Assembly (NCBI GenBank): GCA_951406725.2
Contig: OX597821.1
Location: forward strand, 992,001-1,056,000
DNA length: 64,000 bases
Origin: Octopus vulgaris
Taxonomy: Eukaryota
Reading direction: 5' to 3'
The notes beneath the pieces were generated by a model. It made no database searches. It was not told the DNA's origin and worked only from the letters and a program-made list of their open reading frames with translations. Both the position numbers and the translations under genes were made by a program. Of the stretch, positions 37,955 to 58,775 are shown piece by piece. Each line of letters begins with the position of its first letter. The first letter of the stretch is position 1.

Positions 37955-38723
37955 CCACATACAGTGCGTATAGGCACATCTGTAATAATATTGATGTAAG
38001 TAAATAAATATGAATTCCAGTGTATATATGTACATATATATTTACATCTGTAGCACTACCTTGCTCTCTTAATAGCCTTTCGATTCCCAGGCGTGTATAT
38101 TTATTCACATTTATACACATATATATGTGCGTATGCATGTATAAAGGTAGGTATTAAACTCTATCCATTTCGTTTAATCTGTATCCAAAATAAACATACA
38201 TATTTATGTAGTCGTATGTATGGCGTAGATTTTTCGACTCTTGTTTCACTGCACAGGTGTGTATATTGTACATAAGCAGCGCTCCTGTATTTATTCACAT
38301 ATATGCATTGTGTACCCTCTATTTTTTTTTTGTTAGTATATATAAGTATGTATAATAAATATAAACACGCGTAAATATATTTATATAAAATTTCTTAATA
38401 ATAATTCAATAAATATGTATGCTCATACACATACATTTACACGTGTGTATATGTATACTGAGATATGTACGTAATCGTATATTATATATATCATACACTT
38501 AGTGTGTTTATGTTTGTGTGTATATATGTGTTTATGTGTGTATGTGTGTATTGTACATCTGCTTCCTTATTTTTTTACCATCGGAGGTTTGTGTATATAT
38601 TGTTGCACACATATACATATATATATCTATATATTTACATGTATGAATTTATGTATGTATATATGTATATATGCATGTATGTATATATATACATATATGA
38701 GATTTCAAAGATTTTTATGGTAA

Positions 38724-38729
38724 GCCTAC
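38724..38729 (-). other. 5' splice donor (G|GTAGGC) of the CELF first coding exon; the intron runs toward the window start
   Basis: Minus strand reads ATG CAT AAG G|GTAGGC. Protein similarity stops exactly here. Confidence 0.85.
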
Positions 38730-39015
38730 CCTTATGCATTCCTGTAAAACGATCCTTTAAAACCGTCAACTCATAGATTTGCCCATATTCCTCAAATATC
38801 GGTCGTAGGTCTTTTTCTTCCAAATTCCTCGGAATTTGCCCCACAAATAATTTGATCGCATCTTGGTCCTTCATGGGTATTGTATTAGGGTGTGATGAGT
38901 TAGCAGATGATGGTCCGTTGACAACTTGCAGATTTTGAGTCGGTATTGTATGCTCACTGCTTGTACCCGGCATTAAAACTCCGTTATGATGCGCTAGAGC
39001 AGAAACCGCTGCCAT
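38730..39015 (-). CDS. CELF: First coding exon of a CELF3-6 / Bruno-like (CUGBP Elav-like) RNA-binding protein: N-terminus plus first half of RRM1
   Basis: [49 protein letters not shown] is nearly identical to RRM1 of CELF3/4/5/6 (RNP2 LFVGQI, start of RNP1 KG). Strong Kozak context AAGATGG; phase-1 GT donor after HK-G. Confidence 0.93.
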
Positions 39016-39723
39016 CTTGTATGGACTTGTCTATCTATCTGTATATTACTGTCTGTATATTTCTATGTGTATTTCTCAGTGCGTGTGCTGCGTGTGCGTG
39101 TGCGTGTGTATGTATGTGTATGTGTGTAAGTCTCTGTCTGTCTGAATGTATCTGTGTGTCTGTGTCTGTGTTTATGGCTATGTCTCTCTCTCTCTCTCAC
39201 TCACTCACTCCCTTTATCCTTCATTCGCGTTCTCCCCTCCCTCTTATTTCCTTACCGCGCTCTCTATCTTTCACTCACTCGCTCTCTCACTCTCTCAGAC
39301 GCACATACTCTCACCGTTCCCCCTCTCTCTCCTTTTCTTTCTATCTATCTCTCGTACACGCTCTCTGCCTGTGTGGATGTTGCTCTATGTGGGTGTATGT
39401 ATGTGTATTCTTCTCTCTATCACTATGTCTATATCTCTACATCTCTACGTCTAAATGTATGCGTATTCACTGCGCGACTCTGCTTGTTTCTGTATCTGTG
39501 TATCCGTATTATGTGTGTGTGTATATGTGCACATATATAATCATATATATGTAGATATATACATATAAATTTACGAATACATCACATATGTACGCACTTG
39601 AATGCGCGCGCGTGGATGCGTGTATATATGTTCGTGCGCGTGGCTGTTTTTGAGTGCTGTTTCACGTTTGCGCGTGTATATATTTGTATATGCGTATATA
39701 TATGAACTATGCTTCCATATATG

Positions 39724-48212: not shown

Positions 48213-48258
48213 GCTGTCTGATGAAGCGTAACGACGCTGAAACACAGTGTTCTACGGT
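48213..48258 (+). ncRNA. Type I hammerhead ribozyme-like motif
   Basis: gctgt-CTGATGA-agcgt(aacg)acgct-GAAA-cac(a)gt-GTT-ct-acggt: perfect 5-bp stem II and near-palindromic stem III. Stem I needs a 2-nt bulge at the cleavage site. Confidence 0.6.
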
Positions 48259-49918: not shown

Positions 49919-50650
49919 CTGGCCCGCCTGTTCAGGCATCGAGGATACCCACCTACCCTGGTCTTGAACGCCCTCGCCCGCGCTCGTCACATCGACCGCA
50001 CCACCGCCCTTTCTCCTTCCTCACCTTCCCCCCACCGCACCCCCTTTTCCCTCCTTTTCCACCCCTCTACTCTACCCCATCGTCGGAAGATACTACGTGC
50101 CTTCCGTCGTCTCCAGCTCGATCCCACAACCCGCCCCATTTTCCCCAACCCACCCCTGTTCTCCTTCAATTGAGCCCGGAATCTACGCGACCTCCTGGTC
50201 CGTAGCACCCTCTCTTCTTCCCCCTCAGCCCCACACGGATCCTTCTCGTGCTCCAGATCCCGCTGCAACACCTGCCCCTTCATCACCAACACCACTGCTG
50301 TCACCGGTTCCAACCAGCGAACTGTACGTATTAGACATTCTTTTACGTGTACTTCGTCTAGTCTCATATACTGCATTAAATGCAACCTCTACGGAATGCT
50401 GTATATAGGACAGACGGGACGCCGGTTGTTAGACCGATTCGCCGAACATCTAAGGGATTTTGGTCTACGGTCCAATTCTCCCGTCGCACGTCACTTCCGC
50501 TCGGCCAGCCATTCCCCCGATGACATCTCTGTGTTTGGTCTCGCCCCACACAACGGTCCTCCACAATCCAGGCTTCACTTGGAGCAACGTTTCATTTTCA
50601 CTCTACAGACCAATACCCCACACGGACTCAACACAGCCCCATCCTCTTAG
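49919..50650 (+). pseudogene. Penelope-like element ORF C-terminus: RT thumb end (RGYP), Cys-rich linker, GIY-YIG endonuclease; one in-frame stop at 50171-50173
   Basis: One reading frame: ..FRHRGYPP..FN*ARNLRDLLVRS..CSRSRCNTCPFI..FTCTSSSLIYCIKC..LYIGQTGRRLLDRFAEH..VARHF..RLHLEQRFIFTLQT..PHGLN. Confidence 0.92.
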
Positions 50651-51395
50651 TGACAGCGCTCCACCTCTCCCCACTAGCAACTTTTTTTAAAATATTTTGT
50701 CCTTATACAGTTACACACACACACACACATACTCACGTGTCCACGAACACACATACTTCCAACACACCACACACATACAACCTACATGCACATGTACGCA
50801 CACATACTTCCACACATATACACACCCACACACACCAACACACCCCCACGCGCACACACACACATGCCCGTGCACACACACCAGCAAAAAACACTCATAC
50901 AGATACGCACACTCTTATAAACACCTAGCAGACACACACACACACATACACGCACGTAAGCGCACACACGCACGTAAGCGCACACACGCACACAAGCACG
51001 CGCATGTACATTACGCCCACACAACTCCAGAACCCCCCCCACACACACACACGCATACATTCACACACATACATACGTACACACACATACATACATACAT
51101 TCATACATACATACACACATACACACACATACACACATACATACACATACAAACATACATAGATACATACATACACACACACATACACACACACACACAT
51201 GCACACATACATACATACATACACACACACATACACACACACATACATACATACATACATACATACATACACACACACTTACACACATACACACATACAT
51301 ACATACACACGTACACACATACACACACATACATACATACACACATACACACACACATACACACACACACACACATACATACATACATACATACA

Positions 51396-51426
<31 letters not shown>

Positions 51427-52439
51427 GGGGTTGGCTGTATTGCAGCCGTGCGTCAGTGTATGTATGTGTGTGCCTGTGGATTCACATACCCCCACACCAA
51501 TTTTTTTCCATCAATCTTTCAATTATAAAGTGTGTGCTTGCATACATATATATACACACATATAAACATATAAACACATATTAAACCTCTACATTTGTAC
51601 ACACACGCACATATATACATACATTCACTCGCACGCACGTACACACACACGCACACACACACACATATTTACACATATATACTATACACGCACACACACA
51701 TACACACCGACACATATACATACACACAATATATACCTACACGCGTACGCACACATACACATACGTACACACACACATACAAACGCACACATACACGCAC
51801 ACACAACTACACGTACATACATACACACACACTCACACATAAATGAACCCACACATACATCCCATACACACGGCACACAATTATACATACACGCACACAA
51901 TTATACATACCTATATATACACACACACGCACCTACAAGCACACACGCACACATACACTAAGTTAAGCACAGTTACTCGCCACACACCCAAACTCTACGC
52001 ATACACACACGAACACACACATACACACACACACACTACAAACAAAATCACAAACACGATACATATACATACACGCACACACACATACCTCTTTGTTTTT
52101 GACCTGTGTTGGACACAAAAATCACCACTCATTATTCTTACAAACTGGCCAGCTACTAGCCAGTTGTTCGCCATGCACACATACACACACATACGCACCC
52201 CCACACACACGTGTCATCATTGCACACATACACACACACGCGCACCCGCAGACCTTCGCACACGCACACATCTACACACATTTCCTTGTCCTTACCATAC
52301 TGTCTTTGAAACACTCCTGTCTTTAAAAAACATTATTCTTCCACCTTTCAACTTTCGGTCTTTCAATATGTGACCTCGTGAGTACCGCCAGCGATTTTTT
52401 CCCTCTGTCTTCCCTTCTCGGGATCTTTCCTTCTCCTAT

Positions 52440-52474
52440 GTTTCCGACGAAGAGCTCCGCTCGAAACGTTAAAC
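52440..52474 (+). ncRNA. Minimal type I hammerhead ribozyme (CCGACGA core variant) at the Penelope 3' end
   Basis: gttt-CCGACGA-a-gagc(tcc)gctc-GAAA-C-GTT-aaac: 4-bp stem I, 4-bp stem II and palindromic ACGT stem III, as typical of PLE hammerheads. Confidence 0.7.
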
Positions 52475-52725
52475 CCTCCTTCTTCCCTTCTTTCCTGAGC
52501 GTCCAATAATACTTTATTTGTTCCATGTCCTCGCGTTGCTGTGTTTTTTTGTGTTTTCTTGTTTGGATTAACAATATATATATATATATATGCGTGTGTT
52601 TGTGTTAGACTCCCAACGTGAAGCTTGTGTTCGATTTGTTCGAGTAATACTTTAAGTCGAAGCCCCAGCATGGCCACTGTGCAATGACTGAGACAAATAA
52701 TCTCTCTCACTCTCCCCTCTCTCTC

Positions 52726-53634: not shown

Positions 53635-53637
<3 letters not shown>

Positions 53638-55251
53638 TTGCGGCCAAAATGTTCAGAACGGCATTGTTTTCGTCAGAAAAGTAGGTATAAGTTTTTATCA
53701 AAGTTGTTTTATATTCTATAATTTTCACAGACAATAAAACAGTATTAATTGTTATTGTCTGAGATTTTGGTGTAATTTGAGAGGATAATACAAAAGTTAT
53801 GGATGATTTAGGGATTTACTGCAAAACCCATGGCGGCCAAAATAATCAGAACGGTTGAAAAAATAACAAAATAATCAAAAATAATAGAGAATACTGGAAT
53901 TATTTAATATTTAGTGTGAAGCCCTTTAGCTTCAATCACACTCTCTGACATCTTCGATTGCATGAGGAAATTAAATTTTCAATTTCTTGCTGGGTGATCT
54001 TATTCCATTCTTCTTGAAGGGCATTCCATAATTGTTCAGTTGTTTTAGGATTTCTGGCTTTCGAACGTTCTCCTAGAATATTCCACACATTTTCAATAGG
54101 ATTGAGATCTGGGCTTTGAGCTGGCCAATCCATAACAATAACCTTTTAAGCCTTGAGGAAGTTAATGATCACCTTAGCCTCTTGACATGGGGCATTGTCC
54201 TGCATGAATATGGGTGGTCGCTTAGTTGAATTTCTCAGCACAGGCAAGGCATGATCTTTTACAAGTTGTTTATAAACTCCTGCATTTAACTTTCCATGTA
54301 ATCGCATCAAAGGGCCCACACCATCTCCAGATATCATTCCCCAAACCATGACACTTCCTCCACCGAATTTAACACTAGTCTTAAGGCATTTTGGCAACAA
54401 TTTTGGCAACAATTTTTCACCTACTTTTCTACGAAATAGCATAAACTTAGATTCCTCACTGAAATGCACCGTTTGCCATTTTTCTTGAGACCACAACACA
54501 TGTTCGGTTGCAAAGGTAAGACGACACTTTTTATTCTTGGAGCTGATCAGTGGCTTCACTGCAGGTGCTCTTGCTTGTAGGTCATGTTCAACTAAACAAT
54601 GAGACACAGTTTTTCGAGATAAAGTTTTCTTCAATACAATGCTCATTTTCCGAGAAACAGCAGCAGCAGTTTTAAATCTGTCCTTTTTAACCAACTTTAC
54701 CATAGCACGATCTTCTCTCTTGGTCGTTTTTCTTGGCCTACCTGTAAACTTTCTTGCTTCACACGATCCACAATCATCGTAGACCTTAAGTATACCGTGT
54801 ACAACACTTTTTGACTTGTTAACAATCTTTACAATAGATCCAATACTTAAATTATCCTTCCTTTGAAGGTTAATAATCTGCTGACGAATTGGTAACGGAG
54901 TAAGTGGCATTATATTAACAAAGAACACTGCAAATATTCTTACTAATGTTTAGTAAACGAACCGTCACGTAACAAATTCAAAACATTAGAGTTCGCCGGT
55001 TAAATATACTAAAACACGGAGTAAAAGCAACCGTTCTGATCATTTTGGCCGCCATGGGTTTTGCAGTAAATCACTAAATCATCCATAACTTTTGTTTTAT
55101 CCTCTCAAATTACACCAAAATCTCAGGCAATAACAAATAATATCGTATTTATTGTCTGTGAAAATTATAGAATATTAAACAGCTTTGATAAGAATTTATA
55201 TCTACTTTTCTGACGAAAACAATGCCGTTCTGAACATTTTGGCCGCAACTA
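53635..55251 (-). mobile_element. Full-length (1617 bp) Tc1-like transposon with IR/DR ends
   Basis: ~223-bp inverted repeats at 53635-53857 and 55028-55251, each with two GCGGCCAAAAT..TCAGAACGG direct repeats. Left end TA|CAGTTG inside (TA)n; right terminal base mutated. Confidence 0.95.
53904..54910 (-). pseudogene. Tc1 DD34E transposase pseudogene
   Basis: GRPRKTT linker, HFSEESKF (first catalytic D changed to E), VKFGGGSVMVWG, FMQDNAP, WPAQSPDLNPIE (34 residues between D and E). In-frame TAA at 54146-54148 and a frameshift before the terminal VIEAKGLHTKY*. Confidence 0.95.
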
Positions 55252-55260
55252 TTTATATAT

Positions 55261-55864
55261 ATCAGAAATATTAAATTTCTAAATGTCTCAAAGAGACATG
55301 AGCGGTGGTGGAACGATAGAGTGGTTGTATACTGTCACCCTAACGTGACAGTCCCGTAAAGGGAATTACACCACCGCTGTTTAGCCCTAGGAAGCATCGA
55401 ACGCTTCCTGTCGGCCTTGACACATGGTCTGTGTCCTTATATTTGTGAAGGGGAGGCAAGCACCCCTAACAGCCAAGATTCACACCTGAGGACATGCATG
55501 TTTCTGGGTCTTAACCCGTCATCAGCCCAGGATAGTGAGATCTGCTGACTGAGGTGCCATACGAGAGTGTCACGTTAAGTTGACAGTATACAACCACTCT
55601 ATCGCTCCACCACCGCTCATGTCTCTTTGAGACATTTAGAAATTTAATATTTCTGATTACGGTGACCAGTGAATAGATTTCACTGTAAATATATATATAT
55701 TTGTGAAGGCTAGACAGGCACCTCAACCAGCAGATTTCACTATCCTGGGCTTGCCTCCCCTTCACAAATATAAGGACATAGAAAATGAGTCAAAGCCGAC
55801 AGGAAGCGTTCGATGCTTCCTAGGGCTAAACAGCGGTGGTGTCACGTTAAGTGACAGTATACAA

Positions 55865-55870
<6 letters not shown>
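55261..55870. mobile_element. Non-coding fold-back element built from inverted copies of a hammerhead-bearing module
   Basis: Inverted pairs: 55261-55350 with 55568-55657; 55368-55461 with about 55749-55842; 55525-55558 with 55717-55750. Confidence 0.75.
55476..55543 (-). ncRNA. Type I hammerhead ribozyme
   Basis: Minus strand: agatctcac-tat-cctggg-CTGATGA-c-gggt(taag)accc-a-GAAA-catgcat-GTC-ctcagg-t-gtgaatct. 6-bp stem I plus extension, palindromic CATGCATG stem III; the stem II closing pair is a C-A mismatch. Confidence 0.8.
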
Positions 55871-55954
<84 letters not shown>

Positions 55955-56478: not shown

Positions 56479-56539
<61 letters not shown>

Positions 56540-56540
56540 A

Positions 56541-56823
56541 TAATCTTTTGATGGAATTTATAAACATTTAATGCATCGCTACACGAATCTCGACAAAACT
56601 CGTTTAACATTCATGCTGGTAAAATGGTATATTAATGTTACATCTGTCGTACATCAATGTTATGTCGCCTGAAGAAATGAATCCATTAAGATCAATCCGA
56701 TGCTCACGGATACCACAGATTGCACTGTAATCATCCCAGGAATACGGGCCGTGATCTTAAGAGACATGCGGTTTGTGGAAAAGCGATGCATTAAATGTTT
56801 ATTAATTCCATCCAAAGATTATT
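56541..56823. repeat. 40-bp inverted repeats enclosing ~200 bp
   Basis: TAATCTTTTGATGGAATTTATAAACATTTAATGCATCGCT versus AGCGATGCATTAAATGTTTATTAATTCCATCCAAAGATTA. Confidence 0.8.
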
Positions 56824-56971
56824 ATTATTGTTATTTTTACATTTATCCTACATTATATCGGTACAGCTCGATGCGACCCCGAAAAACTGGTTCACCAGTC
56901 AGCATCATTAGACTGTGGCCAGCCTAATAGAATAAGAGCTTTATTTGCATATTCAAGACGTTTCCCATACC

Positions 56972-57012
<41 letters not shown>

Positions 57013-57409
57013 GCACACACTCCTATAAGGCGGACCCCACAAGATTAACCGTCTCCCCCAATACATATCCCTTCACATAAATTGTAGCCTCCACACATGC
57101 ATAGATCCTTCCATTGCACACATTACACACCACACGCTAACATAACCGCTCACGACGACTTTTTCCTTTACAGAAAGAAAACAAACCAACAAACACAGCT
57201 ATATATACTTACACCCCAGAAAAAATTATACATATGACCCCGATGCGCATACCACATACCTCTTATCACATCCCCATCCCCACAGGAGTACCACTTTAAT
57301 AATACACACTTTTCCCCATTCCAAGATAATTCTTGCCGTCTTCACAGCATACCCAACCAAGGGAAATAACTCCTAAACTAATCTGGCACTTTTTGTCGCC
57401 GGATTCCCT

Positions 57410-57512
57410 TCCATATCGGCTAACTCTGATGAGCGTAAAGTTACATAATCGGACTGTGACCTAACACTCCATTGTATTCTTTACGCGAAACCGTAAGACC
57501 AGCCGTGATGGA
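57410..57512 (+). ncRNA. Extended type I hammerhead ribozyme
   Basis: tccat-at-cggct-aa-ct-CTGATGA(57426-32)-gcgtaaag..ctttacgc-GAAA(57487-90)-cc-GTA-ag-acc-agccg-tg-atgga: intact core, perfect 8-bp stem II, stem I with internal loops. Confidence 0.85.
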
Positions 57513-57975
57513 TATTTAATACTATACATCTAGGATAATATATATATCATATTTACATTTATTCCCTTCTTCCTTTATGTGTTTCATACTAGGGCATCAT
57601 CAGTAACATCACCTTTTCAGCAAGCATTGCTATTTGGTTGGCTTTCGATGAATGAGGTAATTCGATATTGCTGCCCTCAATTGAGTTTCTTGCCGTGGTA
57701 TTAGCTTATCTGGGATCTTGGGCCGCAGAAGATTTTAAACCATTGTAACTCTCTTAGAAGTCAATTATTACATAAAGATAATATCTTTTAAATGCAGGAT
57801 CAGTGAATTGATTAGAGTCCTGTAATGAGTTCCACATATGAAAAGATCCTAGCTATTACTGATAATCTACTCAACTGAAGGCAAACGATATGCAGAAATA
57901 CCAAAATCATTTCTTGATCTCTTGGTACAAATTTTAGCGGCCACATTATCTACTGTCTGGAGAATATGGTTGCAA

Positions 57976-58195
57976 ATATAAAACGAACAGAAGTGACTGC
58001 CAGGAAGACCAACAACATTTCTTGATTTAAATTCGAGCATTCGCTTTGCTTGTTGTCTGCGGTATGTTGTTACGAATATAAAACGAACAGAAGTGACTGC
58101 CAGAAAGATCAAATCAACAATATTTCTTGTTATCTTGGTCTAAATTCTAGAATCCACCTTGTCTATTGTCTGCAGTGTGTTGTTGTGAATATAAC
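57976..58195. repeat. ~100-bp degenerate tandem duplication
   Basis: AATATAAAACGAACAGAAGTGACTGCCAG occurs at about 57976 and 58075. Confidence 0.85.
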
Positions 58196-58298
58196 CGGAT
58201 TACTCTACTCGATTTATATTTTTTCGATCTCGGTTAAACAAAAAGTAAAGATGATTTCGACGTGATTCGAAAACAGAATATCGCTAAATATTCTTATA

Positions 58299-58775
58299 GG
58301 CGCAGTAGTGGCTGTTTGGTAAGTAGCTTGCTTGCCAAAAACATGGTTCCGGGTTCAGTCCCACTGCGGGGTACCTTCGGCAAGTGTCTTCTACTATAGC
58401 CTCGGGCCGACCAAAGCCTTTTGAGTGGAAGAAGCCCGTCGTATATGTATATGTATGTGTGGGTATATGTTTGTGTGTCTGTTTGCCCCCCCCCTAACAT
58501 CGCTTGGTAGACGGAAACTGAAAGAAGACCGTCGTATATATGTATATGTACATAGATGTGTGTGTTTGTGTGTCTCTGTTTGTCCCCCAACATCACTTGA
58601 CAACCGATGCTGGTGTGCTTACGTCCCCGTAACTTAGCGGTTCGGCAAAAGAGACCGATAGAATAAGTACTAGGCTTACAAAGAATAAGTCCTGGGGTCG
58701 ATTTGCTCGACTAAAGGCGGTGCTCCAGCATGGCCGCAGTCAAATGACTGAACCAAGTAAAAGAGTAAAAGAGTA
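58299..58775 (+). mobile_element. SINE family A with internal deletion and duplication
   Basis: The AAGAAGCCCGTCGTATATG..CCCCAACATC segment is present twice; tail (AAAAGAGT)n. Confidence 0.9.

What the first reader, a model, noticed from the sequence alone, without database searches (positions are those of the whole stretch)
57410..57512. Intact extended hammerhead with 8-bp stem II and a ~38-nt insert
Seen: perfect core CUGAUGA/GAAA/GUA, canonical G-C closing pair, stem II GCGTAAAG/CTTTACGC extended by TACA/TGTA, and a three-segment stem I with internal loops (CT/AG, CGGCT/AGCCG, TCCAT/ATGGA). Stem III is only AC/GU with a 1-nt loop, so it probably needs a dimeric fold. This is the best candidate for an active ribozyme; predicted cleavage is after 57495. 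No PLE ORF lies next to it.
Basis: partly seen in the sequence, partly recalled or inferred. Interest (0 to 1): 0.72.

Follow-up and report, generated by a model that had tools for sequence, protein, structure and literature searches.

The report
Broken hammerhead copy from abundant retroelement
This is a real hammerhead self-cutting RNA motif, but it is one worn copy of a very abundant repeat, likely the end of a Penelope-like jumping gene; it lacks five bases of one helix that its sibling copies carry, so it is predicted to cut poorly or not at all and is ordinary.

Summary
It is not intact. Contigs from four public runs (three species labels) show a high-copy, dispersed family: summed depth is hundreds-fold above the unique flanks. 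All 14 listed pieces that cross helix III are longer than the window copy, 8 of them by exactly 5 nt. In siblings helix III is a 10-nt palindrome (3 bp + tetraloop: -1.9 kcal/mol as monomer, about -15 as dimer). The window copy lacks GATTG, which leaves +5.4 as monomer and -0.8 as dimer, with a C·C mismatch. The 1-nt loop is therefore most likely a lesion, and a dimer would barely rescue it. The 38-nt insert is a family feature that folds as a long hairpin. The layout (C/A-rich strand, hammerhead, about 40-nt tail, (TA)n) matches a Penelope-like 3' end, as in a separate PLE remnant 5-7 kb away. No ORF is linked to this copy. Verdict: a decayed member of a known kind, PLE/retrozyme type I hammerheads.

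The parts
56975..57010 (.). (TA)n tract 5' of the element (likely target microsatellite)
   Evidence: sequence
57101..57402 (+). C/A-rich upstream part of the repeat family, diverged and rearranged in this copy; 57383-57403 is replaced or shortened relative to siblings
   Evidence: depth up to about 6000 vs 55-65 in X2; joints and loose ends at 57383/57403; A 0.33, C 0.33, G 0.10 over 57011-57409
57410..57425 (+). helix I 5' strand (TCCAT, CGGCT, CT segments)
57426..57432 (+). catalytic core C3-A9, CUGAUGA
57433..57486 (+). helix II: 8 bp (57433-40 / 57479-86) extended by a 38-nt imperfect hairpin shared with siblings
   Evidence: pair probability 0.99-1.0; 6 listed sibling pieces cross it with only 5 gaps in all, net +5
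57487..57490 (+). core G12-A15.1, GAAA
57490..57494 (+). remnant of helix III; siblings carry 5 more nt behind 57492, giving a 10-nt palindrome
   Evidence: tables 4, 7, 8; energies
57495..57495 (+). N17 (A of GUA); predicted scissile bond after it
   Evidence: hammerhead consensus; sequence
57496..57512 (+). helix I 3' strand (AG, AGCCG, ATGGA); siblings read T at 57499 where the window has C
   Evidence: table 7
57513..57547 (+). short 3' tail of the family, ending in an (AT)n tract that starts 42 nt after the cut site
   Evidence: depth falls to single-copy level by 57574

Best explanation
This is a worn solo copy of a high-copy dispersed repeat family that carries a type I hammerhead, likely the 3' end (pseudo-LTR region) of a Penelope-like retroelement or its non-autonomous derivative, and this copy lacks 5 nt of helix III that siblings carry, so it is predicted to be nearly inactive. 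SHOWN: the motif; high copy depth in three species labels; the longer palindromic helix III in siblings; the (TA)n flanks; no tandem partner and no ORF near this copy. INFERRED: in an intact family member, the element's transcript folds helix II and the bulged helix I. It then closes helix III either weakly in cis (3 bp + tetraloop) or strongly between two copies (10-bp duplex) in a tandem or pLTR-bearing precursor, and cuts after GUA to process the precursor RNA. A PLE reverse transcriptase/GIY-YIG protein would have inserted a 5'-truncated copy into (TA)n. After insertion this copy would have drifted 8-17% from the listed siblings and lost GATTG. Its core is now predicted to mispair with 57492-98.
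For:: 1308, 866, 1178 and 225 contigs laid in X2, X5, X7, X8, mostly under 95% alike. X2 summed depth is 30,468-54,555 over 57402-57530 vs 55-65 in unique flanks; X5 1,381-4,495 vs 6.9; X7 4,947-11,083 vs 11.7. GATTG is put in behind 57492 in 11, 6, 9 and 2 contigs. Loose ends at 57493 read the long form in all four runs (behind: 39, 28, 26, 5 contigs). 14 of 14 listed pieces crossing the site are longer than the window (+1 to +6, eight exactly +5) and 83-92% identical; helix III hairpin -1.9 (siblings) vs +5.4 (window); self-duplex -14.4/-15.0 vs -0.8; the active monomer fold of the window copy is 9.2 kcal/mol above the ensemble. An unrelated hammerhead at 55525-55491 (-) in the same window has the same design, a 10-nt palindromic helix III. 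A PLE remnant at 49919-50650, whose relatives are RT + C-terminal GIY-YIG proteins, is followed by a C/A-rich tract of like composition, a minimal hammerhead at 52444 and (AT)n 103 nt later. PMC4209133: D. virilis-type PLE hammerheads have a large helix II, a 2-bp helix I and a small palindromic helix III, and most S. mansoni minimal motifs occur as single elements, probably truncated PLEs. PMC8557442: hammerheads lie near PLE 3' ends, a 30-40 bp tail is common, and (TA)n is a preferred target.
Against: No ORF or full-length element could be tied to this family (no genome held; read laying gives no flanking sequence far enough out), so the PLE assignment rests on architecture. The tables are cut (178 substitution rows, 90 indel rows, 66 joints, 769 loose ends and 3698 pieces not shown), so the share of copies with the short helix III was not counted, and a small short-form subfamily is not excluded. 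No contig identical to the window across 57421-57601 is among the rows shown, so the deletion is not confirmed in reads. Summed depth is not a copy number (tool caveat). Compensatory changes in helices I and II could not be counted. Rfam does not recognise the motif.
Confidence: 0.72

Rival explanations
1. The family is a non-LTR retrozyme (a tandem 150-400 nt non-autonomous repeat spreading through circular RNA), and this is a decayed monomer. The copy is just as broken; only the parent differs.
For: Type I hammerhead; family span here about 450 nt with no ORF; monomer copies of retrozymes are common (bioRxiv 10.64898/2026.07.22.740005); mussel retrozymes lack the canonical loop 1-loop 2 contact residues (PMC7229834).
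Against: No second copy in 64 kb; no head-to-tail joint among the 15 joints shown of 81; the family ends in an (AT)n tract with a short tail, like the PLE remnant in the same window.
Confidence: 0.15
2. One reading: the short helix III is a functional design and this copy self-cleaves as a dimer.
For: The core is perfect and helices I and II are strong; minimal PLE hammerheads with no helix III do cleave weakly in dimeric constructs (PMC4209133), and protein can assist (PMC11167929).
Against: 0 of 14 listed spanning pieces has the window's length; the dimer duplex is -0.8 kcal/mol with a C·C mismatch vs -3.7 for a plain 4-bp palindrome; there is no partner copy nearby; the core is predicted to mispair.
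Confidence: 0.07
3. The 5-nt loss is an assembly error and the true locus is an intact long-form hammerhead.
For: No identical contig across the site is among the rows shown; X1 and X2 hold 0.82 of 45 sampled words.
Against: X2 contigs are identical to the window on both sides (57015-57420 and 57602-58280); this copy also differs from siblings at many other places; a clean 5-nt loss outside a homopolymer is an unusual consensus error (own knowledge).
Confidence: 0.05
4. Chance resemblance to a hammerhead.
For: No Rfam hit; the loose descriptor hits 118 of 1000 shuffles.
Against: The strict descriptor hits 4 of 1000; siblings complete helix III as a palindrome exactly where the model needs it.
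Confidence: 0.01

Closest known systems
PLE hammerheads with a small palindromic helix III (D. virilis Penelope type; Cervera and de la Pena 2014, PMC4209133)
   Same: Type I fold, large helix II, 2-bp proximal helix I, palindromic helix III allowing a dimer, mostly solo copies, near an element end
   Different: The family has a 3-bp helix III + tetraloop, a 38-nt hairpin extension of helix II, two further 5-bp helix I segments, and no extra base between A9 and helix II; this copy has lost 5 nt of helix III
Non-LTR retrozymes (Cervera and de la Pena 2020, PMC7229834; Li et al. 2026 bioRxiv 10.64898/2026.07.22.740005)
   Same: Type I hammerhead in a non-coding high-copy animal repeat; monomers scattered through the genome
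   Different: No tandem arrangement seen; helix II far longer than the canonical 4 bp; ends in a short tail at (AT)n
Canonical type I hammerheads (Schistosoma Sm-alpha type; Rfam hammerhead families)
   Same: Conserved core and three-way junction
   Different: Canonical geometry is helix I of 6 bp and helix II of 4 bp with loop contacts (PMC4209133); here helix II is 8+ bp, so that contact cannot form in the usual register; no Rfam match

Membership tests
Type I hammerhead ribozyme | Core CUGANGA ... GAAA ... UH with G10.1-C11.1 | tested here: met
   57426-32, 57433/57486, 57487-90, 57494-95
Type I hammerhead ribozyme | Helix II and an open-ended helix I | tested here: met
   Helix II p about 1.0, distal helix I p 0.66-1.0; the proximal 2 bp only p about 0.05 in this copy
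Type I hammerhead ribozyme | Helix III able to form, in cis or as a dimer | tested here: not met
   This copy: +5.4 monomer, -0.8 dimer. Met by sibling forms: -1.9 and -14.4/-15.0
Type I hammerhead ribozyme | Self-cleavage after N17 | not testable with these tools
   Needs an in vitro assay
Type I hammerhead ribozyme | Match to an Rfam hammerhead model | tested here: not met
   None at gathering score or at E up to 10
Type I hammerhead ribozyme | Compensatory base changes among homologues | tested here: inconclusive
   Sibling 3' helix II strands differ (one base in the main form; a different 12-nt strand in 27-33 contigs per DNA run), but the matching 5' strands are not shown
Penelope-like element pLTR / 3' end | Linked ORF with RT and GIY-YIG endonuclease | tested here: inconclusive
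   None next to this copy; full-length members could not be fetched
Penelope-like element pLTR / 3' end | Hammerhead near the 3' end with a short tail | tested here: met
   Cut site 42 nt before (AT)n; family depth ends at about 57547
Penelope-like element pLTR / 3' end | Dispersed high copy number, with more 3' ends than 5' parts | tested here: met
   Depth 30-54k on the hammerhead, up to about 6k upstream, 55-65 in unique flanks (X2); higher conservation of the hammerhead could also cause the step
Penelope-like element pLTR / 3' end | Insertion at (TA)n microsatellites | tested here: met
   (TA)n at 56975-57010 and 57538; such tracts are common in this genome, so the evidence is weak
Penelope-like element pLTR / 3' end | Partial tandem or inverted pLTR arrangement | tested here: inconclusive
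   Solo in the window; one opposite-strand joint 57403/57493 in 3 contigs, unexplained
Non-LTR retrozyme | Head-to-tail tandem repeats, each with a hammerhead | tested here: not met
   No second copy in 64 kb; no such joint among 15 of 81 shown; not tested genome-wide
Non-LTR retrozyme | Circular RNA expression | not testable with these tools
   Only contigs were available

The most novel reading that the evidence does not exclude
The family, not this copy, is an undescribed PLE/retrozyme hammerhead variant in a genome that looks like an octopus's. It has a 10-nt palindromic helix III that can close in cis or swap into a dimer, a helix II extended into a hairpin of about 20 bp whose basal stem is wholly exchanged between two subfamilies, and a three-segment helix I that may make a non-canonical tertiary contact. 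Intact members would then cleave efficiently as monomers, unlike most animal PLE hammerheads.
Probability: 0.2. Interest if true: 0.4.

Novelty: new member of a known kind. Interest (0 to 1): 0.14.

Why it matters
Little for this locus: it is a fossil copy. It shows that an apparently minimal helix III in a single genomic copy can be a deletion, so dimer-type claims need the family checked first. The family adds a high-copy hammerhead with an unusually long helix II to the PLE/retrozyme catalogue. Four searches (listings, plus passages of two of the listed papers) found no description of octopus hammerhead families; the giant squid paper reports only a count of 235 hammerhead 1 loci (PMC6962438). 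Subscription papers and supplements were not seen, and Repbase-type libraries may already hold the family.

Tried and rejected
No genome is held, so there was no census or full-length element. Rfam: no hammerhead. A core + sibling helix III pattern gave 47 metagenome and 3 viral matches; 0 of these 50 has a helix II of 4 bp or more together with a helix I of 2 bp or more, and none matches the element by blastn, so they are chance. An exact 24-nt family motif gave 0 hits in genome contigs and in viral contigs. No related copy in the window (blastn, nhmmer). Six-frame translation of 56531-58300 shows no long ORF, and tblastn with 29 PLE-like proteins finds nothing there. Expression: no RNA holder listed; run X8 (RNA only by guess) holds sibling contigs but none of this copy's sampled words; this is no evidence either way. 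Earlier-finding look-ups by place and by sequence were blank. The paper on PLE hammerhead dimers that I recall (Lunse et al.) is not held under the DOI I tried. That GUA is a tolerated triplet is recalled (NUH rule); searches did not confirm it. An effect on the neighbouring CELF/Bruno-like gene was rejected: its RRM exon (38635-39030) is on the minus strand about 18 kb away, so the motif would be antisense in any such transcript.

Full report
Observation. The 121-nt region folds at z = -4.07. A descriptor with helix II of 8 bp or more finds only this site in the window and occurs in 4 of 1000 dinucleotide shuffles; the looser one occurs in 118 of 1000. The 8-bp threshold was chosen after seeing the site. 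Rfam has no hammerhead match. In the ensemble of this copy helix II and the two distal helix I segments form (p 0.66-1.0). The proximal CU/AG pairs (0.04-0.05) and helix III (0.00) do not; the core pairs with 57492-98 instead. TACA/TGTA forms with p about 0.4. The 38 nt fold as an imperfect hairpin that extends helix II.

Host. No genome is held. The window is microsatellite-rich eukaryotic DNA. I recall its SINEs as those of octopuses; no call tested this label. Seven public runs under three species labels hold words of 57015-57535 (three hold half or more).

The family. I laid 4 of the 24 listed runs (X2 label A, X5 label B, X7 label C, X8 label A, RNA by guess) on 57015-58280 at 80% likeness. 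1308, 866, 1178 and 225 contigs were laid, most under 95% alike. Summed depth in X2 is 55-65 on unique flanks, up to about 6,000 on 57101-57401 and 30,468-54,555 on 57402-57530. It falls back to single-copy level by 57574. X5 and X7 show the same profile. The tool warns that this is not a copy number, but a ratio of several hundred marks a high-copy dispersed repeat from about 57101 to 57547 that ends in an (AT)n tract. A label-B contig matches 57065-57257 with 2 differences in 193, so this insertion probably predates the split of A and B (inference).

The key result. Siblings carry GATTG behind 57492 (11, 6, 9 and 2 contigs), and the loose ends at 57493 read the same long form in all four runs. 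Of the 32 piece rows shown (3698 not shown), 14 cross the site. All 14 are longer than the window (+1 to +6, eight by exactly 5) and 83-92% identical to it. Helix III of the family is thus ACC-GAUU-GGU or ACC-AAUU-GGU, followed by A17. That is 3 bp with a tetraloop (-1.9 kcal/mol) and also a 10-nt palindrome that pairs between two copies at -14.4/-15.0. The window's ACCGU gives +5.4 in cis and -0.8 as a dimer, with a C·C mismatch, against -3.7 for a plain 4-bp minimal palindrome. The active monomer fold of this copy lies 9.2 kcal/mol above the ensemble. The 1-nt loop is therefore best read as a deletion in this copy. Six pieces cross the region with just 5 gaps and net +5, so the 38-nt extension and the lengths of helix I are family traits. 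This copy differs elsewhere too: siblings read T at 57499 and have a longer stretch at 57383-57403. A second group of contigs (31, 27 and 33 in the three non-RNA runs) has a different 12-nt 3' strand of helix II. Its 5' partner is not shown, so covariation is untested. Limits: the tables are cut, so I could not count short-form copies or see a contig identical to the window across the site.

Parent element. No ORF lies beside the motif. The window holds a PLE remnant at 49919-50650: weak Pfam GIY-YIG (E 0.0027, below cut-off), with relatives that are RT + C-terminal endonuclease proteins (29 hits of 854 candidates; two read). It is followed by a C/A-rich tract (A 0.38, C 0.34, G 0.08), a minimal hammerhead variant at 52444 and (AT)n 103 nt after its cut site. 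The finding's element has the same layout: A 0.33, C 0.33, G 0.10 upstream, then the hammerhead, then (AT)n 42 nt after the cut site. The two are not homologous in sequence. Another hammerhead at 55525-55491 (-) has a perfect 10-nt palindromic helix III and sits in an inverted-duplicated element, so that design recurs in this genome.

Literature. PMC4209133 (parts 1-2 of 4 read): metazoan type I hammerheads have short palindromic helices III and act as dimers; PLE motifs have large helices II, occur mostly as single copies in S. mansoni, and cleave weakly; the D. virilis type has a 2-bp helix I. PMC8557442 (passages): hammerheads near PLE 3' ends, a 30-40 bp tail, (TA)n targets. PMC11167929 (passages): an Anolis PLE hammerhead is protein-assisted and dispensable for insertion in vitro. 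PMC7229834 (passages) and bioRxiv 10.64898/2026.07.22.740005 (part 1 of 5 and passages): retrozymes are tandem, PLE-derived, with many monomers. PMC6155905 and PMC6962438 (passages). I opened no supplements; those of PMC4209133 and PMC8557442 may list related motifs.

Mechanism. In an intact member, the transcript would fold helices I and II, close helix III weakly in cis or strongly between two copies in a tandem precursor, and cut after GUA to process the precursor (inferred). A PLE protein would have inserted a 5'-truncated copy at (TA)n, which then decayed (inferred). This copy is solo and lacks half of helix III (shown), and it is predicted to be close to inactive. If the nearby CELF-like gene (RRM exon 38635-39030, minus strand) is transcribed through here, the motif is antisense.

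Verdict. A real hammerhead, not intact, and ordinary: a decayed member of the PLE/retrozyme type I hammerheads. It works like (once worked like) a PLE hammerhead; membership in a PLE is likely but unproven for lack of a linked ORF. Interest 0.14. The family's long helix II and three-part helix I are the only points worth a follow-up.

Noticed in passing
window 55531-55485 (- strand), in element about 55261-55874: Type I hammerhead: CUGAUGA at 55525, 4-bp helix II with a C·A mismatch at its base, perfect 10-nt palindromic helix III (55501-55492), GUC with cut base 55491, 6-bp helix I. It lies in an inverted-duplicated element (arms 55261-55358 / 55560-55657, 95% alike), a PLE-like arrangement. 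Its helix III is complete, so it may be a better ribozyme candidate than the finding.
   Followed up: partly
window 49919-52575 (+): 5'-truncated Penelope-like remnant: C-terminal GIY-YIG region with a CxxxxCxxC linker like that of Neptune/Nematis elements, long C/A-rich tract, minimal hammerhead variant with core CCGACGA at 52444 and cut triplet GUU at 52470, then (AT)n.
   Followed up: partly
window 48214-48247 (+): Hammerhead-like motif with core, 5-bp helix II and CTGT/ACAG helix I but no UH after GAAAC; probably decayed.
   Followed up: partly
window about 53636-55252: Tc1/mariner-type element with inverted ends and a 267-aa transposase frame at 54146-54949 (-), Pfam HTH_Tnp_Tc3_2 E 3.9e-18.
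   Followed up: partly
window 38635-39030 (-): Frame with a methionine and the start of an RRM (Pfam RRM_1 E 9e-08), recalled as the first coding exon of a CELF/Bruno-like gene.
   Followed up: partly
window 56545-56818: Small element with imperfect inverted ends of about 35 nt (MITE-like), just upstream of the (TA)n tract; seen by eye.
   Followed up: no
window 57617-57745: A separate repeat fragment (depth up to 4,214 vs 65 in X2) downstream of the hammerhead element.
   Followed up: no
window 57403 / 57493: Opposite-strand joint between the two ends of the hammerhead in 3 contigs (2 in X2, 1 in X7); unexplained.
   Followed up: no
window 1813-1881 (+): Weak tRNA match at Rfam gathering score (29.6 bits), likely a tRNA-derived SINE head.
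   Followed up: no
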